A stretch of DNA of 64,000 bases, from positions 4,960,001 through 5,024,000 of the forward strand of contig OX597820.1 of assembly GCA_951406725.2 (NCBI GenBank). The letters run 5' to 3'. Made by a program: the position numbers and the translations under genes. The stretch comes from Octopus vulgaris. Lineage: Eukaryota. A model generated the notes under the pieces. That model saw nothing but the letters and a program-made list of their open reading frames with translations. It was not told where the DNA came from and made no database searches. This document shows, piece by piece, positions 1,703-61,054 of the stretch; the stretch's first letter is position 1; each line of letters starts with the position of its first letter.

Positions 1703-1918
1703 TATTTCTTTACTGCCCACAAGGAGCTAAACATAGCGGGGACAAACGAGGACAGACAAAGGGGTTAAGTCGATTACATCGAGCCCAGTGCGAAACTGGT
1801 ACCTTATTTATCGACCTCGAAAGGATGAAAGGCAAAGTCGACCTCGGCCTAATTTGAACTCAGAACGTAACGACAGACGAATTACCACTTAGCATTTCGC
1901 CCGGCGCGCTAACGTTTC

Positions 1919-1922
<4 letters not shown>
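1703..1922 (-). mobile_element. SINE family A
   Basis: Reverse complement of the family A body and tail; flanked by (TA)n. Confidence 0.85.
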
Positions 1923-9029: not shown

Positions 9030-9834
9030 CTTTTCCATTTACCCCGAGCGTCCTAACCAATACATCTGCTTGTTGTTCATACGCCTGTCTTTGTCCTTTG
9101 GTTTTCTATAAATCTGAACTATATAAATATATAGCATCTTTTATCTTGTTTCAGTCATTAGACTGTGGCCATGCTGGGGCACCGCCTTGAAGTTTTTAGT
9201 CGAATTAATTGACCCCAGTACTTTTTCTATCGATATCTTTTACCGAACCGCTAAGTTGCGGGGATGTAAACACGCCAACACCAGTTGTCAAACGGTGGCG
9301 GGGGAAAACACACACACACACACATGTATATAGTAATAATAATGACCCTTTGGTGTAATTTATGAATATTTTATCGCAGCGGTACGCGCGTTTCCACAAA
9401 TCACATGTTTGTCTCTGCCACACACACATAAATTACTTGTTGCTAGTTGAATCCGTTGGAACATTAAGAGAATGGCAGCCATGCTGTACAAGTGATTCTT
9501 CTTATAGAAATTGCTGCTTTGATACGGTTTGTGCTGTTTTATTTTTTCCTCAGTCGTACAAACGAAACCTTTACTGGTCTGTTTGTTGTTACGGTCGAGT
9601 TATTTCGCCTTTCTTGCATTAACGAAACACCGACCAAGCCGTAACTTCTTCACTCCACAGCAGACTACAATCTCTCCGTAACACTAACCTAAACGTTAAC
9701 GTAGAACAGCGGTTCCCAACCTGGGACCACAGAAGATTTTCTTCATAAAATTTATCTGCATTAAATAAGTTATACTTCTTCAATTCATACAATATTCTCA
9801 CAATTTCATTTAAACAACTTCTGATAATATATAT

Positions 9835-10066
9835 ATTTCTTTACTGCCCACAAGGGGCTAAATATAGAGTGGACAAACAAGGACAGACAAAGGGATTAAG
9901 TCGATTACATCGACACCAGTGCGTAACTGGTACTTATTTAATCGACCCCGAAAGGATAAAAAGCAAAGTCGACCTCGGCGGAATTTGAACTCAGAACGTA
10001 GCGGCAGACAAAATACTGCTAAGCATTTCACCCGGCGTGCTAACGTTTCTGCCAGCTCACCGCCTT
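9835..10066 (-). mobile_element. SINE family A, full length
   Basis: On the minus strand runs from AAGGCGGTGAGCTGGCAGAAACG to CCCCTTGTGGGCAGTAAAGAAAT. Confidence 0.9.
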
Positions 10067-10643: not shown

Positions 10644-10674
<31 letters not shown>

Positions 10675-14461: not shown

Positions 14462-14598
14462 TTCCGCCGAGGTCGACTTTGCCTTTCATCCTTTCGGGGT
14501 CGTTTAAATACGCACTGGAGTCGATATAATCGACTTAATCCGTTCGTCTGTCCTTGTTTGTTCCCCCTGTTTGTAGCCCCTTGTGCGCAGTAAAGAAA
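14462..14598 (+). mobile_element. SINE family A, 3' part
   Basis: TTCCGCCGAGGTCGACTTTGCC...GTAGCCCCTTGTGCGCAGTAAAGAAA. Confidence 0.85.
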
Positions 14599-14642
14599 AA
14601 ATTAAATGTTCGTTATATATGCATATAATGTTCGTTTTACAC

Positions 14643-17692: not shown

Positions 17693-19429
17693 CCCGGGAT
17701 ATATCTGCATTAAGTACGATCCATTGATAGTTATTTTAATGTAATATTATTGCTTTCGTTGTTTTCATATAACAAATATCTGCGCAGACTCCAAAAGCTG
17801 ACTTCCAATATGGAACTCACAAGCGACGGGATCGATCGTAGAACCATCACGATATTGAACTCACACAGGCGAAGCTATCACATGATGCACGGTGGACGAA
17901 GGTAATAAGGCTTTGAAAAGGCGAGCTGTTAACTCATACATGTTTCTGGGCGTCCAATGTTTAGCGTTGTTAGTAACTGTGGACATGTTTGTGACATTTA
18001 CATCTGATCTTCACCTCTTAGCACAAAGAAGTGATAACTGGTCCACACAACCTCCTAAGTAAACACAAGTCTTATCGCTACGATGTCATAACTCGTTCAC
18101 ACAACCTCTTAAATAAACATAGGTCTTAACATGTGACCTTTATCATAATACTGATCTTTCTTAGTCGGTGGTGTTGGTGGTGGTGGTGGTAGTGATTATG
18201 GTCGATTTAATAGTGGTGGCGGTGTTGAAAGTGTCTTCTTAGTAGTGGCAGTAAGGGTGTGGATGGAGGCGATATCAGTGGTTGCGTTTTTAGTTTAGTC
18301 TAGCAGGGCCTTAATTGAATAAACCTGACAAAGCCATTCCACCTGTGACCACATCTTCTGTTAAATGTATCCAATACTGGTTTCAAATGTCGGTACAAGG
18401 CCAATAATTTCAATTACATCGGCACCAGCGATCTGTTGGGGACTTTCTTTTATCGATTCGAACTCATAGAGTACAGACGGCTGAAGTGCCGCCGGCCCTT
18501 TTACCCGGTGTGCCAACAATTCTTCCAGCGCTAATATTACATTGATAATGGATCTTTCTCATTTTGAAAGGATAGAAATTGATTTGAGGAATTTAAACAG
18601 TTGTCTAACTTTATGTAGAGGATCCTTATATAAGTCGTGGATGATGAAATGCGATACAGTCGTGACCATCCTACCTCAGGGGAAAATATATTTCATATAC
18701 AAGTTATTGTAAACATACGTTTCCTTCCTTTCCGGGACAAGTTTGACCAGGGGCTAAACAACAAGCGCAGTAGCAGTAACAACAACAACAATAACAACAT
18801 CAGGAACTTCAACAGCGGCCACATCCCCAGTATTAACACCAACACTGAACCACCACCACCGCCGCCGCTGCCACCACAGCAACTGTAATGCAACCACCAT
18901 CAACACAGCCTCCACCATCACCACCAGTAACACAACCTCCGCCATTACCAACAGAAAACCCCCATCGTCAACATTAACACCTCTCCCGCCACCACCGCAA
19001 GCAACTCCCACACACCACGCGCCCACCACCACCACCATTCACCCCATCCCCACCACCTCCCTGCCTCAGTATAATCCCTGATAAAGTAAACAGCAGCCAC
19101 TATTTCAAAATGGTGACTAATTCAGACAGGTTTGTCCACTTGGCTTCTCCAAACTCTCTCACCCAATGACGCCATTTTCTATCGAACAATGTCGTCAATA
19201 GATTAGGTTTATTGGCGCCGTGAATATCGATTAATGCATCATCGATATTGGTGGTAGTCTTATTAGTCAACATCAATCATCATCATCACCCTCCCCCACC
19301 CCAAGAACATGAAGGAATCGCGTTTTAACGATATTAGATAGAATTGAACAAATAAATTGAAATATCTACTCATTGAAATGGAGATAACAACCGCGGTTGT
19401 TGCACTCGTGTGTGTGTGTGTGTGTGAAC

Positions 19430-20071: not shown

Positions 20072-20403
20072 TTCCCTAATTAGATGGGCATATAACAACA
20101 TGGTAGCCGACACTCAAGATCTTTAGTGAGACACAACTTTATCGATGTACGTAATAAGACCCAGACTGCAAAATCGATACGACACAATATATTAAACGGA
20201 GTCCTACACATAAACAACAACAGGACAGGTCGAAGCGAACGTCGTACAGAATAAAGCTGAAAACCAAATCCGTCTCCTCGTTACCTATATATATATATAT
20301 ATATATTATCAATAGTAATAAAGGGTAAAATTAATTAACTAGTAATTAATAATTCCACCAAGTAGAATTCGGCATGATAAAAGGACCATTTTTCGGTAAA
20401 CTT

Positions 20404-20737
20404 AATATTTTATAATTACGAGTATAATTATAATTAGGGTTCAGCAAAGATTTACTTTACCACCTACCGAACTTTAGAATTAGCAGCCAAACAACCTTAG
20501 CTATTTCTTCTACTATAAGAAGAGACTCCCGGAAAAAACAAAATACTCGAAATAACCCACGCAGACAGAGAGGAAAAATAACGAGATTTACTTATTTCGA
20601 GTATTTTGTTTTGTCCGGGAGTCTCTTCTTATAGTTAAAGAAATAGCTAAGGTTCTTTGGCTGCTATTTCTAAAGTTCGGTAGGTGGTAAAGCAAATCTT
20701 TGCTAAACCCTAATTATACTCGTAATTATAAAATATT
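20404..20737. repeat. ~150-bp imperfect inverted repeat, (TA)n-embedded Penelope-like terminus
   Basis: Arms at ~20404-20555 and ~20592-20737. A single-arm relative lies at ~45690-45830. Confidence 0.88.
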
Positions 20738-20791
<54 letters not shown>

Positions 20792-20946
20792 GTATTTTTC
20801 AATATTTACAAATAACACGGAAAAAATAAATAGTTACCGGTGTAGCAAAAATTCACAAAGTACCAAGGATGTAACAGCCTATTTGTAAATGGAGAAATTC
20901 CATTGCTTAGTGAAATGTTTTTGTATTACATAGATAAATAAATGGA

Positions 20947-21509
20947 GTTAAACACAGGTATTATTCAAATCTTTATACTTCCGACATATGTTTCGAAGAA
21001 AACAGCATTATTCCGGAAGGAATAAAATGTAAAACAATGCAATCTTCTCATCAGGGGAAAAAAAGAGAAACAAAACGCACCGATAAGATATTTTAACTGA
21101 ATGTGATTACTGCATATATGACGAAGGGAAAGCTGGTAGGTTATTTTTTTTAACCGTTAATATATATAACGTCAAAGGCAATTTGTAGAAAAAGAAGGAA
21201 GAAAGAAATTAACCGAAAATTAAAAGTGGAGAAATATAGTGCGATAGGTGAATAGGAATAAAGGTAAAAGTCCTTTCACGTTATATATACTAACGTTCTT
21301 TTTTTTAAATAACACACCAGCGTTCCCTTCATCATATATACAGTAATCACGTTCGGTTAAAATGTCTTATTGATGCCTTTTGTTTCTCTTCCGTTCCCCC
21401 CGAAGAGAAGATTGCATTGTGTTATATCATTTTATTCCTTCTGGAATAGTACCAATGTTTTCTTTGAAGCATATGTCGGAAGTATGAAGATTTGAATAAC
21501 ACCTGTGTT

Positions 21510-21514
<5 letters not shown>
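20947..21514. repeat. ~225-bp imperfect inverted repeat containing hammerhead motifs
   Basis: Arms at ~20947-21172 and ~21278-21514 (AGTTAAACACAGGT / ACCTGTGTTTAACT). Confidence 0.88.
20979..21060 (-). ncRNA. Minimal type I hammerhead ribozyme motif (Penelope-type)
   Basis: Minus strand: TTCC-C-CTGATGA-GAAGA…TCTTC-GAAA-C-ATAT-G-TC-GGAA. Core intact, 5-bp stem II, palindromic stem III ACATATGT. Confidence 0.75.
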
Positions 21515-21561
<47 letters not shown>

Positions 21562-21750: not shown

Positions 21751-24632
21751 TGTAGTAGTGGTGACAGTCATGCTTCACAATTTTTGACTGTAGCAAGATG
21801 ATTGATTCTGTGCTATAAATACAGCTGGGAGAGGCTCCAGAGTGCGAGGTTTTGCAAACTGTATTCTGACCAATCAGTGTGTAGTATCACTCAATTACTT
21901 AAGCTGATTGGTTGGTTGAGCTGATTGGTTTAGGCGTCACGCTTTGTTGGACATGTCAAGAGTCCTGTATCTTAACCCTGGCTGAGGCAGCAATTGTTGG
22001 GCTATTTTTAGAAATGTTGTAAATAGCCTTTGTCAGAGATTTTTATATTTTTATATTTCAATTGTCATCATCATCATTGTCAGCACCTTAATTATTGTTG
22101 CTAGTAGTGATGGTGGTGGCAAGAGAACTTTTAACCCTAAATAAGATAATTTTCCTGCTATCTTCATCTTGATCACCTTTAGTATTGTTGTTGTTGTTAG
22201 TGGTCATGGTCGTAGCAGTAGAAGTTTTAGCTTCGAATGACGCCACCCCGCTGGCTAAGCGAGCAGGTTAATATATATATACTACTAATATAGGATTAAG
22301 TTTTTTTAACAGACAAAAAATTCCATAAAAAAATGTGGCAGCATATTAAAATACCTTTACAGTTAAAATTATAAACGGTTATATTACGGTTAAAATTATA
22401 AGTTGTACATACATATATATATATATATTGGTGTGGAGGCGCAATGGCCTAGTTGTTAGTGCAGCGGACTCGCGGTCGTAGGAACGCGGCGGTTTCGATC
22501 CCCAGACCGGGCGTTGTGAGTGTTTATTAAGCGACCCCCCCCACACACACACGCATACACACAAGCAAGGACACAACAAGAATAAGCACACAGAGGAACA
22601 AGCGCGCACGCACAACCCATTAGCTTTCTCTTCCCAATTGACAAGCCAACACGTGGTCACGGAAATGACCGATTCAGTGTTTACATTATTTCGAGTTAAA
22701 ACGAAAGATTGCTATATATATATATATATACATATGTGTGTGTGTGTGTGTGGTAAATGAGAGACGGAAGATGGAATATACGAGAGTTTTTATTATTAAT
22801 CACGACAATTGTTTCGACACATCTAGCATCGATCCCTCACTTAACCCGGTTCAGAAGCATCCGGTGAAGATGTATATCACATCGGGTGATGATACAACTC
22901 GTTAAAATAGATACAACTCAAAAAAATAACAGCTCCGCAACGTGTCTTCTCATTTCTTAGAATGAAAAGTAGCAAAACGAAGACAATATCTTCATTTACT
23001 TAGAAGATCAAAAATAATATCACAGATGCAAAGAAGAAACGAACACGCAATACAACGAGAAGAGTATTAAAAATAACCGTTAACTAAGATCGAAGTATAA
23101 ACGCCCTCGCGCAAGCTACATGGTGCATGTACTCTCGCTCATACAAGCATCCACGAAAATGTAAACATACACACACATGTGGTTTGGTGAACTCACGATC
23201 AAAAAGCGAATTAAATAGTTCATTGGTGTTTATAAGAATGAGGAGGTTAGAACTAAACTTCATTCATCCGTACCGAATTGTAAATTATGTTTAATAGATA
23301 CTCAAATTCACTCCCACAGCATTTAGCGAAAGTCCGTTTAAATGCATTTAGACATGTTGAGAATCTTTCAGAAATTCTATTAATGATCTTCTCATGTGTC
23401 CACTTTTCGGTCGCAAAGTGTTCAATATTGTTCGATATACAGTTAATAGAGAGCATTATGTACAAAAACGAGATAATCATACAACATGTGTGGTGTTCAA
23501 TAAATACATGCAAAAACATGGATATTAATGGTCACATTGATATCGATATCAATAAGCAACAAAAATTTCTTTTTTTTTTTTTTCTCCAGTTTCATGCAAA
23601 AGATTTTATAAGTTAACAAGGAGAGAAAACTGCTCTCGATGGCAAATCATATTTTGTTTGAATTATTCTCGGTTACCAACATGGAAAGATGTTTGATCAA
23701 GGTTTACCGTCATAGGATTACAAAAGAATGAGAAAACCGAAATTGCACTTACCTTATTTAATACTCTAACACGATTGCCCGTGGCTCGTTGGGCCACCAA
23801 TAGTTCAAGGTATCCGAAAATATCGCGTATCTCAGGGAATCCGTGGTCTGATTTACGCGAAACTTATTCTATTCCGTTTGTATTCACATTTCAATGGTGC
23901 CCTACTTTCAGAGAATTTTCCCAATATGCACCCAATATATATTAAATTACAGACAAGCAAGTAATCACAGACTTTTAATAGTAGACAGTCCACCACCTCT
24001 GACCGGAGAGTAGTGCTCAATATTTCCAAGTAAAACCCTCAGTGGTCGGAAAGCAGAAGTTCTAGGGTTTAAGACGGCATTTTTTGTGTACATCCACGTT
24101 TTATATAGTCAGAGAATCCATTAGAATCTAGACGCATCAACACGGTGGACGCCAGGAATGGCTACGCACCATAACATTGAATTCACAGCGAAGTAAAATA
24201 ACATTTAGGCATTATTTGTTGGTTGTATACAGCAGGTGTATATGTACTAATCCAATATAAAACGTAGATCCGATTCAGGGCTTGTTCCAGGTGTGGGATG
24301 CAGTAGTTGTAATAACTGGTACCACAGAATTAGTTATTAAAATTTCAAGCTCCAAGATATCAGTCTGGATACTAAGTACGCCATAGATATTCCGAATTTA
24401 CTGGTAGGTGAACAGAAAAAAAAAAATTCTGGATGGCCAGAAGCAGATAATATACGGAGAAGAAAAGTGGAAAAAATATCGAACATTTCTTCGCAATTGT
24501 GGGGAAGGGATGTAAGGGGAGGTGGTTATCTGCTTTTAGAATTAGAATTCAACAGAAGGTTAATGATAAATTACAGAATGGCAACAGTGTAAATTACACG
24601 GTCAGGTGTTCGAATTCGCCATGGTTCTGTAT

Positions 24633-24792
24633 ATATTTCTTTATTGCCCACAAGGGGCTAAACATAGAGGGGACAAACAAGGACAGACAAAGGGATTAAG
24701 TCGATTACAACAACCCCAGTGCGCAACTGGTACTTTATTTATCGACCCCGAAAGGATGAAAGGCAAAGTCGACCTCGGCGGAATTTGAACTC
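24633..24792 (-). mobile_element. SINE family A, 3' part
   Basis: Reverse complement of family A from the B box to the tail. Confidence 0.88.
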
Positions 24793-25053
24793 ATATTATG
24801 GTGAATGTTCAGAATGGTGTATTTTGCAGGTGTTTCTCTCTCGCTCCAAATCTCTTGTTTATAAAACACAATTATATGTGTCTGTGGAAGGTTAATAAAT
24901 AAATCGAATGAAAACAGAAATAACAAAAAAAAAATAAAGGAAAGAAATAATGAATAGAAATTTTATTTTTTAAATGAAGTCTCTTGTGTTCACGAAGCAA
25001 TGTGGTTGTAAGTCTATACACACACATACACACACCATAATATATAAACCATT

Positions 25054-25169
25054 AAGGCGGCGAGCTGGCAGAAACGTTAGCACGCCAGGCGAAATACTTA
25101 GCGGTATTTCATCTGTCGCTACGTTCTGAGTTCAAATTCCGCCGAGGTCGACTTTGCCTTTCATCCTTT
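25054..25169 (+). mobile_element. SINE family A, 5' half (tRNA-like head)
   Basis: AGGCGGCGAGCTGGCAGAAACGTTAGC ... B-box-like GAGTTCAAATTCC; breaks off at CATCCTTT. Confidence 0.9.
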
Positions 25170-25222
25170 TTTACACTTTTTCTGTTTTGGCGGCCGTTTT
25201 CGGTCTGTCAGACAGAAAGGAA

Positions 25223-26638
25223 ATGGACTATGAGTCTCTAACAGACTTGTCCACGACAGATGAGGAACTGGAACAGGCAATTGCAATGAAGCTGATGGAA
25301 GAAAAGGCTGGAGTTTTCGAGTCTTTATCAGACTTGCCTACGTCTGAGAAGGAGCTAGAAATGGCAGCAAGGAATTTGGAAGAGAAGCTGGGTTATACCT
25401 ATGCCGGTGTAACCAAGAAGGCGGAAGAGAAAGGGGTCGACATGGCCAAGTTGACAAGTTACCAGAAATACATGAAAAAGGAAAGCGGTGAGGTGGAACT
25501 ATCACCGACACCCAGGAGAAAAGAATGGTATGATAAGAGGACCATTATGTACAGGGTGTTCGCAAACGAAAGGAAGAGGGTAGAAGTTGTAACCATGGAA
25601 TGGATAGAGGAAGCCCTGCGAAGAACTGAGGAGGAAATAAATTTTCTGACTCGAGGATCCAAGTACGGTACCGTAGTTGTGCATTTCAAAACTGAGTCTG
25701 CAGCGAGGAAGATGGCGGCGAAGGCGGTGAAGTCAGAAAAGGTAACCCTATTACCTACGTATTTAAACAGGAGGATTACACGAATAAGGGTGGAGGGAGT
25801 GCCACCAAACGTGGAGGCAGAATGGATTGTGGCGGCTGTGATCAGCGGCCACGAGGACGAGGTGGATATTCTCCATGCCTCGGTTAAGTCCGAGGGCTGG
25901 AGAGGCGTAACAGTGGAGCTGAACGTACAGGCAGAGACCGAGGTACTGGTGGACCTGACGGAAAGCATCAGACTGGGAGACGTGATCATGAGAGTGTGGG
26001 TGGAGGGCAGGGCTCCACGTTGTTACAAGTGTGGCCTGAGGGGTCACATAAGAGCCTTCTGCCCTCCCCCAGGGAAAGAAACGGATTCCGAACCAGAGAG
26101 AGAGAAGCAGAAACCAGAGGAGAAGGAAACAGAGGAAGAGAATACACAGAAATGGAAGGAAGCTGGAAGTAAGAGGAAGAGAAGAATTCGTGGAAAAGAA
26201 AATAATATGGAACTCCAATCTACCCCAAAACCACCCACACCCTCTGAGTCCCACCCTATCCATGCAGACATTGAACCCACCCGCTCCCCCCCAACAAGAA
26301 AACAAAAGAAAAAAAAAGAATACACACACACAAGAGATTGAAATCGAACCCAGGCCGTACATTTGTACTATGACTGAACAGAGGGAAGTTAAAAGTCTAA
26401 TGGAAGAGTATAAACGGTATGATGTTGGAGAGACTAGGTATGCTGTGATTGAAAAAAGAACATAGGTGAGTTTATGGGGAGGTGTGAAAGGGAGAATTGG
26501 GAGGTGAAAGATATAAGAATGAGCGATGAATTCGTGGAAAATATGAATGAGTATTTCGGAGTAAGAATGGATATGGAATTTATTCGTATTGGCAAAGAAC
26601 ATTCAAGTGACTATGAAAAACAAAGGACAGGTAAGTGA
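25223..26638 (+). CDS. Gag/ORF1-like nucleic-acid-binding protein, copy 1 (acidic repeat N-terminus, RRM-like region, CX2CX4HX4C knuckle); two compensating 1-nt frameshifts in A-rich runs
   Basis: Starts MDYESL at ATG 25223. Contains GTVVVHFKTESAA, ITRIRVEGVPP and VEGRAPRCYKCGLRGHIRAFCP (knuckle at 26021-26062), a layout typical of L1/Tx1-type non-LTR ORF1. The consensus of the three copies continues to ...EKQRTGK* (~471 aa). Confidence 0.8.
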
Positions 26639-26986
26639 TGCTGACGGACGGGGCCGTTGGTATCGCTTTCATTTTATCATTTTTTTCGTTTAACACTTCA
26701 TGTTCATATAGTTTAATTATAATGTTCTATGTCCCCATGTTTTGTTATGTCCGCCGTTCTTCGTAGCCCCTTAGTGGGTAATAAAGAAATAGAAATTCGG
26801 CAACGAATTTTGAAGGAGTCGGTCGTGTTTTTTTACGCTCGTAAAATTCGGTAAAAAAGAACAAAAGGCGTTGTTGTTGTTGTGGAAATTCTGAACGGCG
26901 TTGACGCGGTTTCGCGTTTCGCTCGTTCAGCGCGTTACACTTTTTCTGTTTTGGCGGCCGTTTTCGGTCTGTCAGACAGAAAGGAA

Positions 26987-28394
26987 ATGGACTATGAGTC
27001 TCTAACAGACTTGTCCACGACAGATGAGGAACTGGAACAGGCAATTGCAATGAAGCTGATGGAAGAAAAGGCTGGAGTTTTCGAGTCTTTATCAGACTTG
27101 TCCGAGAAGGAGCTAGAAATGGCAGCAAGTAAATTGGAAGAAAAGCTGAGTTATACCTATGCCGGTGTAACGAAGAAGGCGGAAGAGAAAGGGGTCGAAA
27201 TGGCCAAGTTACCAAGTTACCAGAAATACATGAAAAAGGAAAGCGGTGAGGTGGAACTATCACCGACACCCAGGAGAAAAGAATGGTATGATAAGAGGAC
27301 GATTACGTACAGGGTGTTCGCAAACGAAAGGAAGAGGGTAGAAGTTGTAACCATGGAATGGATAGAGGAAGCCCTGCGAAGAACTGAGGAGGAAATAAAT
27401 TTTCTGACTCGAGGATCCAAGTACGGTACCGTAGTTGTGCATTTTAATACTGAGTCTGCAGCGAGGAAGATGGCGGCGAAGGCGGTGAAGTCAGAAAAGG
27501 TAACCCTATTACCTACGTATTTAAACAGGAGGATTACACGAATAAGGGTGGAGGGAGTGCCACCAAACGTGGAGGCAGAATGGATTGTGGCGGCTGTGAT
27601 CAGCGGCCACGAGGACGAGGTGGATATTCTCCATGCCTCGGTTAAGTCCGAGGGCTGGAGAGGCGTAACAGTGGAGCTGAACGTACAGGCAGAGACCGAG
27701 GTACTGGTGGACCTGACGGAAAGCATCAGACTGGGAGACGTGATCATGAGAGTGTGGGTGGAGGGCAGGGCTCCACGTTGTTACAAGTGTGGCCTGAGGG
27801 GTCACATAAGAGCCTTCTGCCCTCCCCCAGGGAAAGAAACGGATTCCGAACCAGAGAGAGAGAAGCAGAAACCAGAGGAGAAGGAAACAGAGGAAGAGAA
27901 TACACAGAAATGGAAGGAAGCTGGAAGTAAGAGGAAGAGAAGAATTCGTGGAAAAGAAAATAATATGGAACTCCAATCTACCCCAAAACCACCCACACCC
28001 TCTGAGTCCCACCCTATCCATGCAGACATTGAACCCACCCGCTCCCCCCAACAAGAAAACAAAAGAAAAAAAGAATACACACACACAAGAGATTGAAATC
28101 GAACCCAGGCCGTACATTTGTACTATGACTGAACAGAGGGAAGTTAAAAGTCTAATGGAAGAGTATAAACGGTATGATGTTGGAGAGACTAGGTATGCTG
28201 TGATTGAAAAGAAGAACATAGGTGAGTTTATGGGGAGGTGTGAAAGGGAGAATTGGGAGGTGAAAGATATAAGAATGAGCGATGAATTCGTGGAAAATAT
28301 GAATGAGTATTTCGGAGTAAGAATGGATATGGAATTTATTCGTATTGGCAAAGAACATTCAAGTGACTATGAAAAACAAAGGACAGGTAAGTGA
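26987..28394 (+). CDS. Gag/ORF1-like zinc-knuckle protein, copy 2 (6-bp in-frame deletion; frameshift in C/A runs near 28045-28072)
   Basis: ORF track 26882..28096 plus 27948..28394; same motifs as copy 1. Confidence 0.8.
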
Positions 28395-28741
28395 TGCTGA
28401 CGGACGGGGCCGTTGGTATCGCTTTCATTTTATCATTTTTTTCGTTTAACAATTCATGTTCATAAAGTTTAATTATAATGTTCTATGTCCCCATGTTTTG
28501 TTATGTCCGCCATTCTTCGTAGCCCCTTAGTGGGTAATAAAGAAATAGAAATTCGGCAACGAATTTTGAAGGAGTCGGTCGTGTTTTTTTACGCTCGTAA
28601 AATTCGGTAAAAAGAACAAAAGGCGTTGTTGTTGTTGTGGAAATTCTGAACGGCGTTGACGCGGTTTCGCGTTTCGCTCGTTCAGCGCGTTACACTTTTT
28701 CTGTTTTGGCGGCCGTTTTCGGTCTGTCAGACAGAAAGGAA

Positions 28742-30157
28742 ATGGACTATGAGTCTCTAACAGACTTGTCCACGACAGATGAGGAACTGGAACAGGCAAT
28801 TGCAATGAAGCTGATGGAAGAAAAGGCTGGAGTTTTCGAGTCTTTATCAGACCTGCCTACGTCTGAGAAGGAGCTAGAAATGGCAGCAAGTAAATTTGGA
28901 AGAGAAGCTGGGTTATACCTATGCCGGTGTAACGAAGAAGGCGGAAGAGAAAGGGGTCGACATGGCCAAGTTACCAAGTTACCAGAAATACATGAAAAAG
29001 GAAAGCGGTGAGGTGGAACTATCACCGACACCCAGGAGAAAAGAATGGTATGATAAGAGGACCATTATTTACAGGGTGTTCGCAAACGAAAGGAAGAGGG
29101 TAGAAGTTGTAACCATGGAATGGATAGAGGAAGCCCTGCGAAGAACTGAGGAGGAAATAAATTTTCTGACTCGAGGATCCAAGTACGGTACCGTAGTTGT
29201 GCATTTCAAAACTGAGTCTGCAGCGAGGAAGATGGCGGCGAAGGCGGTGAAGTCAGAAAAGGTAACCCTATTACCTACGTATTTAAACAGGAGGATTACA
29301 CGAATAAGGGTGGAGGGAGTGCCACCAAACGTGGAGGCAGAATGGATTGTGGCGGCTGTGATCAGCGGCCACGAGGACGAGGTGGATATTCTCCATGCCT
29401 CGGTTAAGTCCGAGGGCTGGAGAGGCGTAACAGTGGAGCTGAACGTACAGGCAGAGACCGAGGTACTGGTGGACCTGACGGAAAGCATCAGACTGGGAGA
29501 CGTGATCATGAGAGTGTGGGTGGAGGGCAGGGCTCCACGTTGTTACAAGTGTGGCCTGAGGGGTCACATAAGAGCCTTCTGCCCTCCCTCAGGGAAAGAA
29601 ATGGATTCCGAACCAGAGAGAGAGAAGCAGAAACCAGAGGAGAAGGAAACAGAGGAAGAGAATACACAGAAATGGAAGGAAGCTGGAAGTAAGAGGAAGA
29701 GAAGAATACGTGGAAAAGAAAATAATATGGAACTCCAATCTACCCCAAAACCACCCACACCCTCTGAGTCCCACCCTATCCATGCAGACATTGAACCCAC
29801 CCGCTCCCCCCCAACAAGAAAACAAAAGAAAAAAAGAATACACACACACAAGAGATTGAAATCGAACCCAGGCCGTACATTTGTACTATGACTGAACAGA
29901 GGGAAGTTAAAAGTCTAATGGAAGAGTATAAATGGTATGATGTTGGAGAGACTAGGTATGCTGTGATTGAAAAGAAGAACATAGGTGAGTTTATGGGGAG
30001 GTGTGAAAGGGAGAATTGGGAGGTGAAAGATATAAGAATGAGCGATGAATTCGTGGAAAATATGAATGAGTATTTCGGAGTAAGAATGGATATGGAATTT
30101 ATTCGTATTGGCAAAGAACATTCAAGTGACTATGAAAAACAAAGGACAGGTAAGTGA
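28742..30157 (+). CDS. Gag/ORF1-like zinc-knuckle protein, copy 3 (+1 near 28895, -1 in A-run near 29830)
   Basis: ORF track 28637..29011, 28896..29891 and 29888..30157 together reproduce the consensus protein. Confidence 0.8.
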
Positions 30158-30310
30158 TGCTGACGGACGGGGCCGTTGGTATCGCTTTCATTTTATCATT
30201 TTTTTTCGTTTAACAATTCATTTTCATAAAGTTTAATTATAATGTTCTATGTCCCCATGTTTTGTTATGTCCGCCATTCTTCGTAGCCCCTTAGTGGGTA
30301 ATAAAGAAAT

Positions 30311-30527
30311 CAGAAACGTTAGCACGCCGGGCGAAATGCGTAGCCGTATTTCGTCTGCCGTTACGTTCTGGGTTCAAATTCCGCCGAGGTCGACTTTGCC
30401 TTTCATCCTTTCGGGGTCGATTAAATAAGTACCAGTTACGCACTGGGGTCGATATAATTGACTTAGTACCCTTGACTGTCATTGTTTGTCCCCTCTATGT
30501 TGAGCCCCTTGTGGGCAATAAAGAATT
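30311..30527 (+). mobile_element. SINE family A lacking first ~15 nt
   Basis: CAGAAACGTTAGC...GGTTCAAATTCC...GAGCCCCTTGTGGGCAATAAAGAA; matches the other family A copies in the window. Confidence 0.92.
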
Positions 30528-30618
30528 AAATATATAAACCATTGTGTATCTGAACATCTGACCATGCAATTAACAGTTCAACCATTTTGTAATGTGCGTG
30601 TGTGTAAATGTGTGTGAA

Positions 30619-30851
30619 TACGAGGGGTTTCTGGAAAGTTCCTGGTTTTAAGGGTGTCACGAAAGGCCTGATTGGAGGCCCAATATTCCAAATTCCTTTA
30701 CGGGGCTTAGAAAAACTGAAGGACCACTGCAATAAGTGTGTGAATCTGAGAGAGGGGAATAAGTTGGATACAATTATAATTAACTAATTCCTCCTCTATC
30801 TTCTTTTACCCAAAGCCAGGAACTTTTCAGCACCCCCTCCCCCCCTTCATA
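30619..30851 (+). mobile_element. Non-autonomous Tc1/mariner element (MITE)
   Basis: TIRs TA-CGAGGGGTTTCTGGAAAGTTCCTGG / CCAGGAACTTTTCAGCACCCCCTC. The internal GLEKLKDHCNKCVNLR-GE resembles a mariner transposase C-terminus. Confidence 0.75.
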
Positions 30852-30991
30852 CGTAAAATTACACGTGTTTCAATGATTTATAAAGAAAAATTAAGAATTC
30901 CTCAAAATTAATCGATATATTGTAATTGTTAGGTTCGAGGGTTCAAATCTTGCTTCAGCTTTCTTTAATGACGTTTTGAAATGTTATAGAT

Positions 30992-31217
30992 TTATTTCCT
31001 TATTGCTCACAAGGGGCCACACACAGAGGGGACAAATAAGGACAGACAAAAGGATTAAGCCGATTACATCAACCTTCAGTGCGTAACTGGTACTTATTTA
31101 ATCGACCCCGAAAGGATGAAAGGCAAAGTCAACCTCGGCGGAATTTGAACTCAGAACGGCAGACGGCATACCGCAAGGAAGTTCACCCGGCCTGCTAATG
31201 CTTCTGCCAGCTCACCG
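30992..31217 (-). mobile_element. SINE family A
   Basis: Reverse complement of near-full family A. A more degraded relative follows at ~31240-31405. Confidence 0.85.
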
Positions 31218-31532
31218 TTTTGAAATGTTATATATTATGGACTATTTACGTTCGACCCAGAGTACGATTTAAAACTGTATCTGAGGTACTTATGTTAACG
31301 CCCCGAAAAGATTAATTTCAAATCAACCGCGGTGAAACTTGAACTCAGATCGTAAAAGCAGATGAAAATTAGTTTGTCTGGCGTGCTAACGATTCTGCCA
31401 ACGCGGTGGCTTCAGTAGATACTCCTGTTAATACTGATTTTTCAGTGGACACGATATTGCTGCCCAGGTAACTAAACTCGTTGATATTAAATCTCACATT
31501 GCTAAGGCTTGGGCAGCTTGCAGAAGATGCTG

Positions 31533-31902
31533 TTGCTGTTGCTGTTGAGCGTAGTGGTCTTCGTCCAGTGGGAGAAGTCCGAAATGTGGTCCTTTGCTAT
31601 TCGTAAGACCCGCAGAAGAGAAAGCAGGTCAACCCCCGACACCGAGAGCATCGACGGATGGATGAATGCGCATCCAGGCTCAGCGGTTGCGTAGGAAGTC
31701 GGGGACAAGAAACAGGAAGAAAGAGTGAGAGAAAGTTGGAGCGAAAGAGTACAACTGGGGTCGCCACCACCCGCTACCGGAGCCTCGTGGAGCTTTAGGT
31801 ATTTTCGCTCAATAAACACACACAATGCCCGGTCTGGGAATCGAAACCGCGATTCTCCGACCGCGAATCCGCTGGCCTAACCGCTGGGCCATTGCGCCTC
31901 CT
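31533..31902 (-). mobile_element. SINE with family C head/body and a different 3' tail ending (CAGCAA)n; 15-bp TSD
   Basis: TTGCAGAAGATGCTG at 31518-31532 and 31903-31917. The head matches family C; 31533-31705 is unrelated to the other family C tails. Confidence 0.88.
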
Positions 31903-32586: not shown

Positions 32587-32800
32587 CCGGTTTCAAATTT
32601 TGGTCCAAAGCCAGTAAGTTTGAGGGGTGAGGATGGGGGTAGGGGTGGGGTTAAGTCGATTACATCGATCTCAGTGTTCAAATGGTGCTCATTTTATTGA
32701 CCGCTGAAAGAATGAAGACAAAGTCGACCTCGGTGGAAATTGAACTCAGAGCATGAAGACGGATGAAATGCCGCCAAGCATTTTGTCCGGCGCACCAACA
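32587..32800 (-). mobile_element. SINE family A variant (degraded)
   Basis: AAAGTCGACCTCGGTGGAAATTGAACTCAG core. Confidence 0.7.
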
Positions 32801-34012
32801 ATTATAGAGATTATATATTTATGAAATTATTAGAAGACTTGTGTGTTCAAGAGTTGCTGCAATCATAAAATTCCATCCAGCCATCCATAACCTTTTGCTT
32901 CAAAACATTGCTGGCCTTGTGTCCACTTCGGAAACTCAGGCCAGATTCGTAGGCACATCGGACAAAATGCTTAGCGGGATTTGTTTCGTCTTTACGTTCT
33001 GAGATCAATCCCCACCAAAATAGAATTTGCCTCCTCCTGTTGGGACCGATAATACAAGTACCAGTGGTGTACTTGGGCCTATGTAACCGACTAACCCTCT
33101 CTGCCAAAATGGCAGGCCTTGTGTCTGTAGTAGAAAAGATTATTATGTTTGTTGCTGTCATTATTTATTTGTTTGTTTGTTTGTTTGTTGTTTTCCCCGC
33201 ACGAGTCTTCCAGTGGCAACCATCTTGCTCTTGCATACATGGATATAATTTTCAGCTGCTGTTTTCTCTCATTATTGACTTTAAGGGCTTTGGGTTACCC
33301 CCCCCCCTCAGTGTATTCCTGCTGCAACCAATTTAGGTATAAGCCTTTTATTCTGGAACCTTCAGATGTCAATCGATACGGGCCCAGATGCGTTCAGTAA
33401 GCATGGTTTTGTTCGAAATGCCCTTCATAGTTGGGTCCCACTCGCCCTTGCAAATAAACAGTCCAGAGTTGAGAAAGTGGGTGAGTGACGTTAGGGAATG
33501 TACGCATGCACTTGGGCCAGCATACCTTCTCTCTTCGACGAGCTGCTACAATGAGATTCACAACAGATAAACGTGGGACCCCAAAGTACCCTGTTACCAC
33601 GCGGGAATAGGAGGCACTGTAAAAGTCATGTACCAGTCATGTACCAGTAGAGGGCAACTTAAGTCTTCATTTCCTCTGCCCCCTACAAAAGTAAGCGCAA
33701 GCTGGTGGCAGGAGCTGGCAGCAGAGAAGAGCTGAAGAGAAACAGCATGCACTGATTACAGGCATTGTTCCCCCGTCACTCCTGCAAAGGAGCCCTTCAT
33801 ACTCACCCTGCATAAAAGTACAAGCACGCATCAAGTATGTATGGACGTATGGTTCCTCTTATTATATAATAAGTATGCATGTTTGAATATACGTATGGAT
33901 GTATGTATATTATTTATATATTTATATATACATATAAGTATGAATATTCACAGATTGCGCAAACACTTTTGCTTCCTCCCTATACACACACACATACATG
34001 CATACATATATC

Positions 34013-39410: not shown

Positions 39411-39414
39411 TGGC

Positions 39415-39757
39415 ATTCAGTCGATTACGACGATACGGGTTCCAGTTGATTAACGGTACAGTGTGCTCATGAAATTATCGTGTAAGTGGCTGAGCACTTC
39501 ACAGATACGTGTGCCCTTAGCGTGGTTCTCAGGGAGAGTCCATATGACACAGGCTAGACGTTTGAAATACAGGTAAAATAGAAACAGGAAGAAAGAGTAA
39601 GAGAAAGTTGTGGCGAAAGAGTACAGCAGGGTTCGCCACCACCCACTTCCGGAACCCAGTGGAGCTTTAGGTGTTTTCGCTCAATAAACACTCACAACGC
39701 CCTGTTTAGGAATCGAAACCGCAATCCCACGACTGCGAGTCCGCAGACCTAACCACT
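39415..39757 (-). mobile_element. SINE family C
   Basis: Collinear with 49447-49780. Confidence 0.85.
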
Positions 39758-40205: not shown

Positions 40206-40957
40206 GTGCATTGTGTTCTTGAGCAAAATACTCCATTTCACGTTACTTTTGTTTTGTTCACTCAGATGTTAAGTAACGAATCTGCGGTGGGTCGGTGTCC
40301 CTTTCATAGTGGATTTTGGGGTCCTAGTCGTTTATATGCTCTGGAGACCGGGAAACTGGCTCTGGAACTCTAGTACTCGGAAATAGTAAAATTTCCATGT
40401 GTCTAATGACTGGGTGTTAACTGCACCATTTTAGCAGTTTAGTGTGGCCCATTGTAAAGGTCGTGGGCCCTGTCCCTCCTTCAGTGAAAATCAAAACAAA
40501 ACAAAACAAACAAACGAATATCAGAGACAAAAACATGGTGAGAATCGTCATAAGAAGGGTGTTGAATGAAAGGTTCTTGGCGGTTTTATTTGTTGGGTTC
40601 GTCATCCTTAGTTTATGGGTCCACATCTCAACCTCACATCTTTTATATTTCAGCAGGTTTATTTAAACATATTGCCTTGCGCTGCTAAATATAAACTGAA
40701 TGGATAAATTTTAAGGCGATCCAGCCGTGACCATCCTATAGTGTAAGGAGTATTTATAACACAACATAGGACTGTATGAAATAACCCAAAACGTTAGACA
40801 AAGTGGAAGTTGAGCGGTATTTGGCTGCTATTTTCGTTTTTTTTTCTCTAGGCACAAGGCCCGAAATTTTGGGGGAGAGGTAAAGTCGATTAGATCCGGT
40901 AAGCCACTCCTGCGTCTGCTTAGATGCATACATATATATACAATATATTATATTACT

Positions 40958-42560: not shown

Positions 42561-43051
42561 TCACTTAAGACAATCAATACTTCATTTCATTTCTTTCTTA
42601 CTGTATATTCTATATTCTATATCCTATATCAATATTATAAGAATATAAATAAAACTTAAAAAACAGACAGAGTTGGAATTCTTTTGAGTAATATATATAT
42701 ATATATAAGATCCAAGGATCGAAGTGTAGGAAGAAGGTTAGCTTCAAGCAAATCGTAGAAAATATAAAAAACAACTTTTGGGACCAATAGTAGTTTATTT
42801 GAAGCAGAAGGTTGTAGATTTTTGCCGTATCGAAGTATGACAGACTGAAAAAATGTTTTCGATTTCACGGTAGGCAGACAGCGTTGCCAGGTTTGCGAAT
42901 AAAACACAAGAGCGAAGGAGTGGAATGGATAAGATCCGGGCTGGATATGTGTCATAGCGAATGGAACCTCGGAAGTGGTAAGTATCCACTTTGCAATACA
43001 CTGCACTGTCCCCTCTTTGTTTACTCCCTTTGTGGATTATAAAGAACGTAC

Positions 43052-47086: not shown

Positions 47087-47125
<39 letters not shown>

Positions 47126-47128
<3 letters not shown>

Positions 47129-48914: not shown

Positions 48915-49446
48915 TGAGAAGGAGAGAGCGGATGGTCTCACTAATGAAAGTGAGTTAATTAAACTTCCGAAGCTGGTTAATTACTTGAGACCAAGTTCCG
49001 GTGCGTCACGTGTTCTAGCTAGCGCCATCTAGACTGCAATCACATCGTTCAACTAACTGCAAAAGAGAATAGACACCAGATGAATATATTTTCAAACCTG
49101 TGGTTATAATCCGCTAAGGAATCGAGCTAGATGTCCAGGATAAATAATCCGGATCATTGTGGCTTAACGCCTGATCACAACCAAGCAATCAGTTACTCAG
49201 TTCAGTTAGTAATCCGAAATATGTACCAGATCGATATGGAAATATTCAGTCTCCAAGCGAGGTTCATCGATCAGTTCGATCTGCTGTCAGAACTAAATAC
49301 CAATCAATCTGATTCAACCGTAGATTAAGTCCTCCAATCAGTCCACTTAGCTGTCACAAATACGGTAGGCGTGGACTGCTCTTAGCATATGGAAGTGGTT
49401 CAGTCTGTGATCACAGTCCACCAAACAGTGGGCACCGGAACAGAAA

Positions 49447-49780
49447 TCAACGGAACAGCCTGCTCGTGAAATTAACGTGTAAGTGGCTGAGCACTCCACA
49501 GACACGTGTACCCTTAACGTAGTTCTCGGGGATATTCAGCGTGACACAGAGTGACAAGGCCGACCCTTTGAAATACAGGTACAACAGGAACAGGAAGTAA
49601 GAGTGAGAGAAAGTTGTGGTGAAAGAGTACAGCAGGGATCACCACTATCCCTGCCGGAGCCTCGTGGAGCTTTAGGTGTTTTCGCTCAATAAACACTCAC
49701 AACGCCCGGTCTGGGAATCGAAACCGCGATCCTATGACCGCGAGTCCACTGCCCTAACCACTGGGCCATTGTGCCTCCAC
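49447..49780 (-). mobile_element. SINE family C (tRNA-derived)
   Basis: Minus-strand head GGAGGCACAATGGCCCAGTGGTTAGG (A box) ... GGTTTCGATTCCC (B box). Related copies at 1108-1395(-), 39415-39757(-), 61172-61485(-) and head only at 22432-22532(+). Confidence 0.88.
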
Positions 49781-59597: not shown

Positions 59598-59760
59598 TCT
59601 GGCGGGATCGTTAGTAAGCCGGATAAAAAGCTCGTCCGTCCGTCTTAATGTTCTGAGTTCAAATTCCGCCGAGGTCCACTTTGCCTTTCATCCTTTTGGG
59701 GTCGATATAATCAACGTACTCCAACCCCAAACATCCTGGCCTTGTGCCAAAATTTGGAAG
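59598..59760 (+). mobile_element. SINE family A variant
   Basis: GAGTTCAAATTCCGCCGAGGTCCACTTTGCCTTTCATCC...GGCCTTGTGCCAAAATTTG. Confidence 0.75.
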
Positions 59761-61054
59761 TGATGTTATAGAGGGAGGCAGTATTATTGCCGAATGATAG
59801 CCATTGCATCCTGTTTAACTAGATGTATTATTAGAACGCCGTGATACTGAAGTATTCACCCCGAGTTCTGTGAGCGGTGCTTGGTATTTCTTGTTTGCTA
59901 CCGTTATCTTTGTGCTTTCATGCAGTAGGTAGCGATTCAAGACGCTTCCTGGCGGTGAAATCTACAGCACTATAGCGCCCCTACAATGCATTCACGTTAG
60001 GTAGGCTATAAAGATTGCTATATTGGCCGTACACACACACACACACACGAAAATATATTATATATATGTACCTGTATATGTATACATATATTTTTGAGTA
60101 TATATATGTATATATATATATACACATATATACATACATATATATATATGTATATATACATGCATATATATTTATACATATATGCATATGCATATACATA
60201 TATGTATATATATATATATACATATATGTATATATATATGTATATATATATATATAATATATATATATGTATATATATATTATATATATATATATATATG
60301 TCTTATGTCTATATATGTGTATATATGTATATTTATATATTTTATATATTTTATATATACATATATAATATACATATATATATATGTGTGTGTGTGTGTG
60401 TGCACACACACACTCACATATACACTCACACATACACACAATCACACATACACACACACACACACACACTCACACAGACATATACATGCGCATATTTGAG
60501 TGTGTATATATGTAAGCATAAACATTTTCTATATGGACATTTCTTTCACTTATTAACTATGACAACGCAAACATTTCGCAGCAAAATTTCTGTCGCTTGT
60601 GACGGAATCGCAACGAATTTGGTATTCGGCATTTAATCCTTTGAGCTGACTTCATCTGTTCCAGATAACCTCGTCTGCTCACACTTGAAATAATCTCCCG
60701 TCAAACACACTCAATATCCATTACAATCTTCAGCAACAGATATCGTATTTCTTTATTTACATTCGTATGACCTTTGACCCGATTCTTAGTGTTCTTGAAT
60801 AAATTGTCTGCTTCATTTAAATTTATATCGTTTCCATCAAGTCACTGACATCTTGTTAGTCACGGCCCTCTAAAGTTGGGTAATAGTAGATATGTCAACT
60901 AGTTCTGTTCTTTGATACTGGTGGTCACTGGACGGCTGTCTCGGTCGTCTCTGCAGTTTGATGGTGATGTTGTTGCTGTTGTTGTTATTGTCATCGATAA
61001 GGCTGAAGCTGTTGCAGCTAGCGTTGTTTATCTGGCCGTGATGTAGCAGTAAAC

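What the first reader, a model, noticed from the sequence alone, without database searches (positions are those of the whole stretch)
30245..30527. The gag-only unit and SINE-A share the same 3' recognition tail
Seen: the unit ends TGTCCCCATGTTTTGTTATGTCC…GTAGCCCCTTAGTGGGTAATAAAGAAAT, while SINE-A ends TGTCCTTGTTTGTCCCC…TAGCCCCTTGTGGGCA[A/G]TAAAGAAAT (copies at 9835, 14462, 24633, 30311). Both can form a short GCCC/GGG[C/T] stem before the tail. Established: stringent LINEs recognise a 3' stem-loop that is shared with their partner SINEs. Inference: a three-member system of one unseen autonomous LINE, a non-coding SINE and a coding ORF1-only parasite, all using the same RT. Neither RT-bearing CR1/L2-group LINE in this window carries this tail.
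Basis: partly seen in the sequence, partly recalled or inferred. Interest (0 to 1): 0.8.

Follow-up and report, generated by a model that had tools for sequence, protein, structure and literature searches.

The report
Octopus ORF1-only retrotransposon shares SINE tail
An octopus jumping gene that encodes only an RNA-binding protein and an abundant non-coding repeat end in the same short hairpin-bearing tail, so both probably borrow the copying enzyme of one still-unidentified full-size retrotransposon; parasites of this general kind are known from other animals.

Summary
A 1.76-kb unit (three head-to-tail copies, 25171-30310) and a roughly 230-nt SINE share their last 50 or so nucleotides, almost exactly over the last 27. 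The tail belongs to the unit family: in public contigs it is as deep as the body and is present in a diverged copy. The unit encodes an ORF1-type protein (two RRM-like folds, one CCHC knuckle; named relatives are from octopods) and no reverse transcriptase.

Two additions. (1) One 15-bp target-site duplication brackets the whole SINE-half + three units + SINE composite, and its two SINE pieces differ like unrelated copies, pointing to a template switch between unit RNA and SINE RNA. (2) A sister SINE keeps the same loop on a stem with swapped base pairs, which supports the hairpin.

The autonomous LINE was not found; no genome was held, so the three-member system remains inference. ORF1-only non-autonomous LINEs (HAL1, HeT-A, Ag-Sponge) and SINE-LINE tail sharing are known. 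Verdict: new variant of a known kind, interest 0.5.

The parts
25039..25053 (+). Left copy of a 15-bp target-site duplication
   Evidence: Exact 15-mer found only here and at 30529 in the window; 0 of 19,924 random 30-nt windows shared 14 nt or more with this flank
25054..25169 (+). SINE-A 5' half (positions 1-116: head and start of core), joined directly to unit 1
25171..26790 (+). Unit 1, 5'-truncated (starts at unit position 144); ORF1 25223-26341, 372 aa
26791..28546 (+). Unit 2, longest form; ORF1 26987-28096 (369 aa), small ORF 28125-28394 (89 aa), 152-nt 3' UTR
   Evidence: fold
28547..30310 (+). Unit 3; ORF1 frame broken early (ATG 28742, stop 29011; rest in 28878-29891), small ORF 29888-30157
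30250..30310 (+). Shared 3' tail of unit 3 (same at 26730-26790 and 28486-28546); hairpin at 30286-30299 with 4-bp stem and 6-nt loop, then AATAAAGAAAT
30311..30528 (+). SINE-A copy starting at SINE position 16; tail about 30472-30528 with 4-bp stem and 5-nt loop
30529..30543 (+). Right copy of the 15-bp target-site duplication
9834..10066 (-). Full-length SINE-A copy
1703..1922 (-). SINE-A copy; stem kept through a G-U pair
30991..31222 (-). SINE-A copy with its own 16-bp TSD; stem has one mismatch
24634..24793 (-). 5'-truncated SINE-A copy, best match to the unit tail
14462..14600 (+). 5'-truncated, more decayed SINE-A copy
59605..59762 (+). Sister SINE ('B'): same head and core, different tail, same loop on a stem with swapped pairs. 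Other copies near 7640-7841(-), 32590-32803(-), 32942-33140(+), 18380-18523(-); tail-only pieces at 40840-40885(-) and 32890-32940(+)

Best explanation
The unit is a high-copy, non-autonomous, ORF1-only non-LTR retrotransposon of an octopus. It carries a probable internal promoter in a CpG-rich 5' UTR (inferred), a type I ORF1 RNA-binding protein (shown by fold model) and a 3' tail. The tail ends in a 4-bp hairpin with a CTT(A)GT loop followed by AATAAAGAAAT. SINE-A carries the same tail. Both RNAs are most likely bound through this tail by the ORF2 protein (endonuclease + RT) of one autonomous LINE and inserted by target-primed reverse transcription (inferred). The LINE is unseen. L1/Tx1 is the best guess (about 50%), from the two-RRM + single-CCHC ORF1 and the 15-16 bp duplications at A/T-rich sites; a CR1/L2-group partner is the next guess. 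The composite in this window most simply records at least one RT template switch between unit RNA and SINE RNA. Either (a) unit cDNA was primed inside a resident SINE at position 16 and finished by jumping onto a second SINE RNA whose cDNA paired with the resident head, or (b) the whole composite was made in one multi-jump event. The three units come from one source: a multimeric or repeatedly used template, or later tandem duplication.
For: Tail sharing is beyond chance and sits at both 3' ends. It is more conserved in the last 27 columns (2-4 differences) than upstream (15-16 of 34-35), Fisher p 0.002-0.013 with a boundary chosen after the fact; SINE-SINE pairs show no such step (12% vs 16%). 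The tail is intrinsic: summed contig depth in bin 30227-30286 lies within the body range in 3 of 3 organism-A runs laid (the fourth run, organism B, covered only 3 of 30 bins, none in the tail), and a diverged contig (13 changes, 7 gaps in 150 nt) reaches 30308. Other tail-to-head joints start at 28583, 28588 and 30025 in run X1, as expected of independent 5' ends. ORF1: confident model (pLDDT 95.7) with tandem-RRM matches, CCHC in 26 of 77 aligned members, CCHC and ZCCHC3-type Atlas clusters at 0.90-0.92. No RT in the unit. One 15-bp TSD surrounds the composite. The duplicated SINE segment differs at 8 of 101 with no shared private change, like unrelated copies (8-13 of 101 among the four least diverged), against 0.9-1.0% between units; binomial 3e-5 at a 1.2% rate. 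Hairpin: 3 of 4 pairs change on both sides between SINE-A and sister B, 90% of cells paired, 0 of 500 shuffles. Class precedent: PMC5786205; SINE-LINE-RNA chimera under one TSD: PMC2104539.
Against: No autonomous LINE with this tail was seen. Scans that could run found only 2 bacterial chance hits and 0 viral hits; no octopus genome was searchable. No individual unit copy with its own TSD was seen. The hairpin alone is weak (z -1.2 to -2.1). The covariation is essentially one event (A versus B lineage), the rows were chosen by the loop motif, and two decayed B copies were left out. A two-RRM + CCHC ORF1 is not diagnostic of a clade (PMC4120745). The two unit-unit junctions are identical, and all window units carry the minority allele at 12 of 24 sites checked, which fits DNA-level duplication as well as template jumping. 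RNA labels of the runs are guesses, so transcription is not shown.
Confidence: 0.6

Rival explanations
1. Tail capture: the unit's ORF1 comes from one LINE clade, and its master copy took the tail from SINE-A (or from SINE-A's LINE) by a template switch. It now rides an RT unrelated to its ORF1, possibly a single-ORF LINE such as RTE or Dong-R4, or a separate ORF2-only element.
For: Tails in this SINE group are exchangeable (A and B share head and core). Unit-SINE chimeras occur here and SINE pieces join the unit at other places in public contigs. None of 30 scanned homologs has an EN or RT family, and 'longer' and 'near' searches found no fused form. Four related proteins sit on contigs of 1.85-1.93 kb.
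Against: ORF1 and ORF2 are normally separate proteins, so absence of fusions is weak evidence, and those searches were insensitive (one search found none of the 338 relatives). Unit and SINE tails differ at about 45% of columns upstream of the hairpin, so any capture is old.
Confidence: 0.2
2. Relaxed recognition: the shared end is a 3'-processing signal or an inherited relic, and a poly(A)-type L1/Tx1 RT mobilises both RNAs without reading the hairpin.
For: The tail contains AATAAA. Two of 6 SINE-A copies break the stem. Tx1-mobilised SINEU elements end in poly(A) and show no identified LINE tail (PMC4494074 passages).
Against: Copies end in AAAGAAAT followed by target DNA or a short repeat, not poly(A). 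Three of 6 SINE-A copies (9834, 1703, 14462) read AGTAAA. Pairing is kept across families A and B.
Confidence: 0.12
3. The shared tail is real but the composite is a DNA-level product: an old unit insertion into one SINE with a 101-bp duplication, or ectopic recombination between SINE-flanked loci, followed by tandem duplication and homogenisation of the units. It then says nothing about a shared RT. (Rival for the composite only; compatible with the other readings of the tail.)
For: Identical unit-unit junctions, and shared minority alleles at 12 of 24 sites. The downstream SINE carries several private changes, as an old resident would.
Against: The two SINE pieces share no private change and differ at two sites that vary among other copies too. 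Unit 1 lacks the 143 nt present in units 2 and 3, so a monomer could not have seeded the array.
Confidence: 0.3
4. The unit's tail is a chance match or a local decayed SINE fragment.
For: The near-exact match is only 27 nt.
Against: Shuffle tests; tail present at body depth and in a diverged copy in public contigs.
Confidence: 0.02

Closest known systems
ORF1-present non-autonomous LINEs: HAL1 (from L1), HeT-A (from Jockey), Ag-Sponge (from CR1)
   Same: Encode only an ORF1 protein and depend on another element's RT (PMC5786205 passage; HAL1 also PMC5753468 passage). HeT-A forms head-to-tail arrays (recalled).
   Different: Octopod ORF1 family with two RRM-like folds and one CCHC; no poly(A) end; tail shared with a tRNA-type SINE; no sign of a telomeric role in this window; parent LINE unknown.
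Stringent LINE-SINE pairs sharing a 3' stem-loop (eel UnaL2/UnaSINE, recalled; bivalve SINEs with CR1-14_CGi)
   Same: Common 3' tail with a small hairpin and short terminal repeat (PMC3747384, PMC4824008 passages).
   Different: Here the second holder of the tail is a coding but RT-less element, and the LINE is not identified.
Tx1/L1-clade LINEs and ZCCHC3-type RRM-RRM-CCHC proteins
   Same: RRM + CCHC ORF1 variants are described as consistent with the Tx1 clade in non-mammalian animals (PMC5203782 passage); L1-Tx1 has 13 recently active families in O. vulgaris (PMC13282606); Atlas hit to a ZCCHC3-domain cluster at 0.90.
   Different: No ORF2 to place on an RT tree; type I ORF1 also occurs in L2, CR1 and Jockey.
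Template-switch chimeras (WEIRD/Mg-SINE/MGL of Magnaporthe; U6/L1; R2 jumps)
   Same: Several RNA copies fused under one short direct repeat (PMC2104539 abstract; PMC3414825 passages).
   Different: Five parts, three of them near-identical coding units, and no LINE sequence in the chimera.
MetaSINE / octopus tRNA-derived SINEs (OK, OR1, OR2)
   Same: tRNA-like head, conserved core, exchangeable tails; the partner LINEs of MetaSINEs were unknown in 2016 (PMC4824008 section 9).
   Different: That SINE-A's core is the Meta domain, or that SINE-A is a named octopus family, is recall only; no sequence was available to test it.

Membership tests
ORF1-only non-autonomous LINE (HAL1/HeT-A/Ag-Sponge class) | Encodes a LINE ORF1-type RNA-binding protein | tested here: met
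   Two RRM-like folds + CCHC
ORF1-only non-autonomous LINE (HAL1/HeT-A/Ag-Sponge class) | Lacks ORF2 (endonuclease, RT) | tested here: met
   1.76-kb unit; no RT or endonuclease Pfam family in its three tested frames; tblastn with the window's two RT-type ORFs finds nothing in it
ORF1-only non-autonomous LINE (HAL1/HeT-A/Ag-Sponge class) | Multi-copy family with a fixed 3' end and variable 5' ends | tested here: met
   Unit 1 truncated at position 144; joints to 28583, 28588, 30025; one X12 contig at depth 4653 against 7-28 for most diverged contigs listed (depth is only a rough guide)
ORF1-only non-autonomous LINE (HAL1/HeT-A/Ag-Sponge class) | Dispersed copies with their own target-site duplications | tested here: inconclusive
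   Only the composite's TSD was seen; contigs are too short to show flanks
ORF1-only non-autonomous LINE (HAL1/HeT-A/Ag-Sponge class) | 5' and 3' parts derive from an identified autonomous LINE | not testable with these tools
   No genome held; no repeat library searchable
HAL1 in the strict sense (mammalian L1-derived) | Type II (Transposase_22) ORF1 and poly(A) end | tested here: not met
   Query has a CCHC knuckle and no Transposase_22 hit; copies end in AAAGAAAT without poly(A)
Tx1/L1 clade | RRM + CCHC ORF1 | tested here: met
   not diagnostic
Tx1/L1 clade | RT-domain phylogeny | not testable with these tools
   No linked ORF2 recovered
Stringent LINE-SINE partnership | Shared 3' terminal sequence between the non-autonomous members | tested here: met
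Stringent LINE-SINE partnership | Conserved 3' stem-loop | tested here: inconclusive
   Covariation between SINE-A and sister B at 3 of 4 pairs, but one lineage event and motif-selected rows; no compensatory change between unit and SINE-A; weak folding z
Stringent LINE-SINE partnership | Autonomous LINE carrying the same tail | tested here: inconclusive
   Absent from the window and from microbial and viral collections; octopus genomic DNA could not be searched
Stringent LINE-SINE partnership | Tail required for mobilisation | not testable with these tools
   Needs a reporter assay
LTR-type gag element (TRIM/LARD, provirus) | Terminal direct repeats around the coding region | tested here: not met
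   Self-comparison shows no terminal repeat within the unit; the array starts at position 144 and ends at the tail
MetaSINE | tRNA-derived head followed by the 66-bp Meta domain | tested here: inconclusive
   A- and B-box-like motifs by eye only; ARAGORN and Rfam give nothing; the domain sequence was not obtainable

The most novel reading that the evidence does not exclude
This ORF1 family is not a recent deletion derivative but an old, diversified lineage of ORF1-only elements in octopods. It acts as the separately encoded RNA chaperone of a 'split' LINE system: the RT comes from an element with no ORF1 of its own, and ORF1 element, RT element and the dominant SINE are addressed by one hairpin code (constant loop, family-specific stem). 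SINE amplification would then depend on two coding partners. Nothing here excludes this: 338 relatives at about 24-57% identity in the listed rows (one short 83% fragment aside), none of 30 scanned linked to EN or RT, related proteins on 1.7-1.9 kb contigs, and unit and SINE RNAs apparently meeting in one RT complex.
Probability: 0.12. Interest if true: 0.82.

Novelty: new variant of a known kind. Interest (0 to 1): 0.5.

Why it matters
SINEs make up about 12% of the O. vulgaris genome (PMC13282606), and the partner LINE of this SINE was not found in the papers searched. The tail gives a direct handle: a short motif plus hairpin to pull out the partner, and an ORF1 family that should point to its clade. 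An ORF1-only element and a SINE competing for, or sharing, one RT is a natural test of what ORF1 contributes in trans. The A/B hairpin pair (same loop, swapped stem) offers a ready-made specificity experiment. The five-part composite is a candidate fossil of template switching between a coding parasite and a SINE.

Tried and rejected
Whole-genome search: no genome held. Word-indexed protein searches found nothing for the single protein, nothing at 1508-4305 aa and one known member at 108-1507 aa; they are insensitive here. Genomic context of relatives: the alignments had no stretch conserved enough. Tail pattern scans: 2 metagenome hits, both in bacterial-looking coding DNA, and 0 viral. A weak fourth tail hit at 43007-43046 (E 0.004) lies just after a splice-donor-like motif with no RT frame upstream; read as a short SINE remnant, not a LINE end. 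The idea that the 89-codon downstream ORF is the C-terminal domain seen in longer relatives was not supported: rank 299 and 487 among 1000 shuffles, Atlas below 0.9. Single-sequence fold was unusable (pLDDT 38.7). The first pair count used an alignment with the gap misplaced and was discarded. Ribozyme or tRNA search: no Rfam match at gathering score in 24500-31500, only chance-level matches by E-value. LTR/gag reading rejected (no terminal repeats); relative P0041 joins an ORF1 N-terminal piece behind an integrase piece, read as a chimeric gene model. Organism B's RNA run held one 151-nt contig at depth 2.3, no evidence of range. Similarity of the RT1 3' UTR to the sister-B tail is weak (18 of 1000 shuffles for one copy, 216 for another). 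Earlier scan notes: three look-ups, nothing.

Full report
1. Observation. The window is repeat-rich animal DNA; named relatives of the unit's protein are from Octopus sinensis, O. vulgaris, O. bimaculoides and Argonauta hians, so I take it to be an octopus. No whole genome was held. The unit occurs three times head to tail: 25171-26790 (starting at unit position 144), 26791-28546 and 28547-30310, 0.87-0.99% apart. All three end in the quoted tail. Six SINE-A copies with a tail are in the window (1703, 9834, 14462, 24634, 30311, 30991), plus a 5' half at 25054-25169. Aligning the whole unit to each of the six always gave the last 27-49 nt of both; 0 of 200 shuffles reached the score for five copies and 1 of 200 for the sixth. 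A profile of SINE tails alone finds the three unit tails at E 3e-5 to 8e-5. The two CR1-like pieces (clade name from a recalled motif) do not carry the tail; only the first has an RT Pfam hit.

2. The tail belongs to the family. Twenty-four runs were listed; 19 hold half or more of the unit's words, all organism A, 15 of them guessed to be RNA. I laid 4 of the 24 on 28547-30345. In the three organism-A runs, summed depth in the bin 30227-30286 lies inside the range of the body bins (X1 256,000 in 139,000-698,000; X12 18,300 in 5,300-40,900; X9 232 in 26-375). A diverged X12 contig (13 changes and 7 gaps in 150 nt) runs to 30308. In X1, 56 contigs lie on the unit's end with SINE-tail letters before 30294. 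The tool warns that depth is no copy number; one X12 contig with a single change has depth 4653 against 7-28 for most diverged contigs listed, so hundreds of close copies is a rough inference. X1 also shows tail-to-head joints entering the unit at 28583, 28588 and 30025, so head-to-tail joins with other 5' starts exist elsewhere. The first 60 nt of the window's unit have only 1-3% of body depth in the DNA-type runs, so the usual 5' end may lie near 28590-28620. The fourth run (organism B) gave one short contig. Contigs could not show what lies upstream of unknown tail holders; 458 loose-end rows were not displayed.

3. The protein. A full scan gave 338 relatives at E 0.001 or better. With 77 sequences aligned, the model reached pLDDT 95.7. 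Foldseek's best matches are tandem-RRM proteins (17 at E 0.001 or better, low TM because the domains are hinged). VIA-align gives Z 9.3 (rmsd 2.5, 81 residues) for residues 30-117 to the La RRM and Z 7.9 (rmsd 2.6, 78 residues) for 116-198 to an ACT-type domain of the same general fold; these Z values are modest. A CCHC knuckle follows (26 of 77 members hit zf-CCHC). This is a type I LINE ORF1 as defined in PMC4120745 and PMC5203782, not an LTR Gag. None of 30 scanned relatives has an endonuclease or RT family, which is weak evidence because ORF2 is a separate protein. The unit itself has no RT. Units 1 and 2 have open 372- and 369-codon frames; unit 3's is broken early. An 89-codon ORF follows in another frame; an A-run before it varies in length among window copies and public contigs, but a link to the C-terminal domain of longer relatives was not supported.

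4. The hairpin. Alone it is weak: z -1.2 to -2.1 on six folds, and 2 of 6 SINE-A copies break it. A scan for the loop motif gave 22 sites in the window: 9 in SINE-A or unit tails, 5 in a sister SINE ('B') and 8 elsewhere, mostly unpaired. B shares SINE-A's head and core but ends differently. In B the same five-letter loop sits on a stem whose letters are swapped. On 12 fragments (10 distinct), 90% of cells pair, 3 of 4 pairs change on both sides, and 0 of 500 shuffles and no slid register reach this. Limits: rows were chosen by the loop motif, so the closing pair is fixed by construction; two decayed B copies were left out; the change is one lineage event counted many times. The unit's loop has six letters. 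Between unit and SINE-A the last 27 columns differ at 2-4 places against 15-16 of 34-35 upstream, a step not seen among SINE copies; the boundary was chosen after the fact.

5. One exact 15-mer lies at 25039-25053 and 30529-30543 and nowhere else in the window; none of 19,924 random windows shared 14 nt with that flank. It brackets SINE positions 1-116, the three units, and SINE positions 16 to the end. The 101-nt segment present on both sides differs at 8 places with no shared private change, like unrelated copies, while the units differ by about 1%. The simplest reading is two different SINE templates and at least one RT switch between unit RNA and SINE RNA. Either unit cDNA was primed inside a resident SINE and finished on a second SINE RNA, or all five parts came in one event, as in the three-part fungal chimera under a 14-bp repeat. 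Against over-reading: the two unit-unit junctions are identical, and at 12 of 24 sites (picked by me from the 40 rows shown of 150, where another letter dominated a DNA-type run) all window units that cover the site carry the minority allele. The three copies therefore share one source, and DNA-level duplication is not excluded.

6. Mechanism and odds. Shown: shared intrinsic tail, ORF1-only content, high copy, one TSD around a mixed insertion. Inferred: recognition of the tail by one ORF2 protein and TPRT (0.6). Rivals: tail captured by an ORF1 from another clade (0.2), relaxed recognition (0.12), chance (0.02); separately, a DNA-level origin of the composite (0.3). For the partner's clade, L1/Tx1 is the best guess: SINE-A shows 15- and 16-bp duplications at A/T-rich sites, and of the clades recently active in O. 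vulgaris (RTE, Dong-R4, CR1, L1-Tx1, Hero, R2) only CR1 and L1-Tx1 normally have an ORF1 (recalled). A weak counter-hint is that the second CR1-like piece ends in the same last 8 nt as the tail (34-38 of 1000 shuffles).

7. Known versus new. ORF1-present non-autonomous LINEs are an established class (HeT-A, HAL1, Ag-Sponge), as are SINE-LINE tails and template-switch chimeras. I found no description of this octopus element or of its tail in nine successful paper searches or in the supplements searched. Repbase, Dfam and the O. vulgaris curated library (80 L1-Tx1 consensus families) could not be searched and may already hold the unit and its partner. One supplement file each of PMC4824008 and PMC4758252, and four files plus two oversized archives of PMC9115989, were not seen.

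8. What I saw of each paper. Passages: PMC4758252, PMC9115989, PMC5753468, PMC4494074, PMC3747384, PMC5203782, PMC4120745, PMC11203168, PMC5786205, PMC8967140, PMC3414825. Passages plus section 9: PMC4824008. Part 1 of 3 of the text: PMC13282606. Abstract and outline: PMC2104539. Not seen: Albertin 2015 (not held), Bao and Jurka 2010, Ohshima and Okada 1994 (known only through citations in the above).

9. Verdict. Observation confirmed; interpretation partly supported and strengthened by the composite and the sister-SINE covariation, but its central member, the autonomous LINE, is still unseen. New variant of a known kind; interest 0.5.

Noticed in passing
25039-30543: One 15-bp duplication brackets SINE half + three units + SINE; the two SINE pieces differ like unrelated copies.
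   Followed up: yes
59605-59762(+), 7640-7841(-), 32590-32803(-), 32942-33140(+), 40840-40885(-), 32890-32940(+), 18380-18523(-): Sister SINE with SINE-A's head and core but another tail, keeping the same loop on a stem with swapped pairs.
   Followed up: yes
28125-28394 and 29888-30157: An 89-codon ORF follows ORF1 in another frame; the ESM Atlas holds it as a predicted protein with no clear look-alike. In unit 1 it stops after 31 codons.
   Followed up: partly
28547-28745: Unit 5' UTR is CpG-rich (observed/expected 2.2 in unit 2) and folds moderately well (z -2.55); no Rfam ribozyme match. Its first 60 nt are rare in public contigs.
   Followed up: partly
unit places 28643 and 29838: Public contigs join the unit to a SINE-A head at these places, so SINE-A also appears to insert into the unit; SINE-in-SINE joints (30328 to 30311) occur in two runs.
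   Followed up: no
55020-55094(-): 3' UTR of the second CR1-like piece folds into hairpins and ends in the same last 8 nt as the shared tail; weak.
   Followed up: partly
47125-47216(-): 3' UTR of the RT-bearing CR1-like piece ends in (TAAC)n-type repeats and weakly resembles the sister-B tail (18 of 1000 shuffles for one copy, 216 for another).
   Followed up: partly
1113-1383, 22432-22534, 31708-31901, 39411-39757, 49446-49778, 61174-61356: A second dispersed SINE-like family unrelated to SINE-A.
   Followed up: no
3350-3716, 6403-6557, 9121-9322, 10441-10842, 54688-54983, 61946-62304: A third dispersed family, often carrying an internal (CA)n run; four of the unpaired loop-motif sites seem to belong to these other families.
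   Followed up: no
42820-43046(+): A splice-donor-like motif near 42979 followed 30 nt later by a 40-nt tail remnant; possibly a host exon. Frame not resolved.
   Followed up: partly
20397-20742, 20927-21533, 11004-11131: Long inverted repeats (MITE-like foldbacks) in the self-comparison.
   Followed up: no
proteins P0003, P0008, P0010, P0017, P0022, P0079, P0088: Longer relatives share a C-terminal region with a 'L(K)xxF(P)xDVG'-like motif that has no Pfam match.
   Followed up: partly
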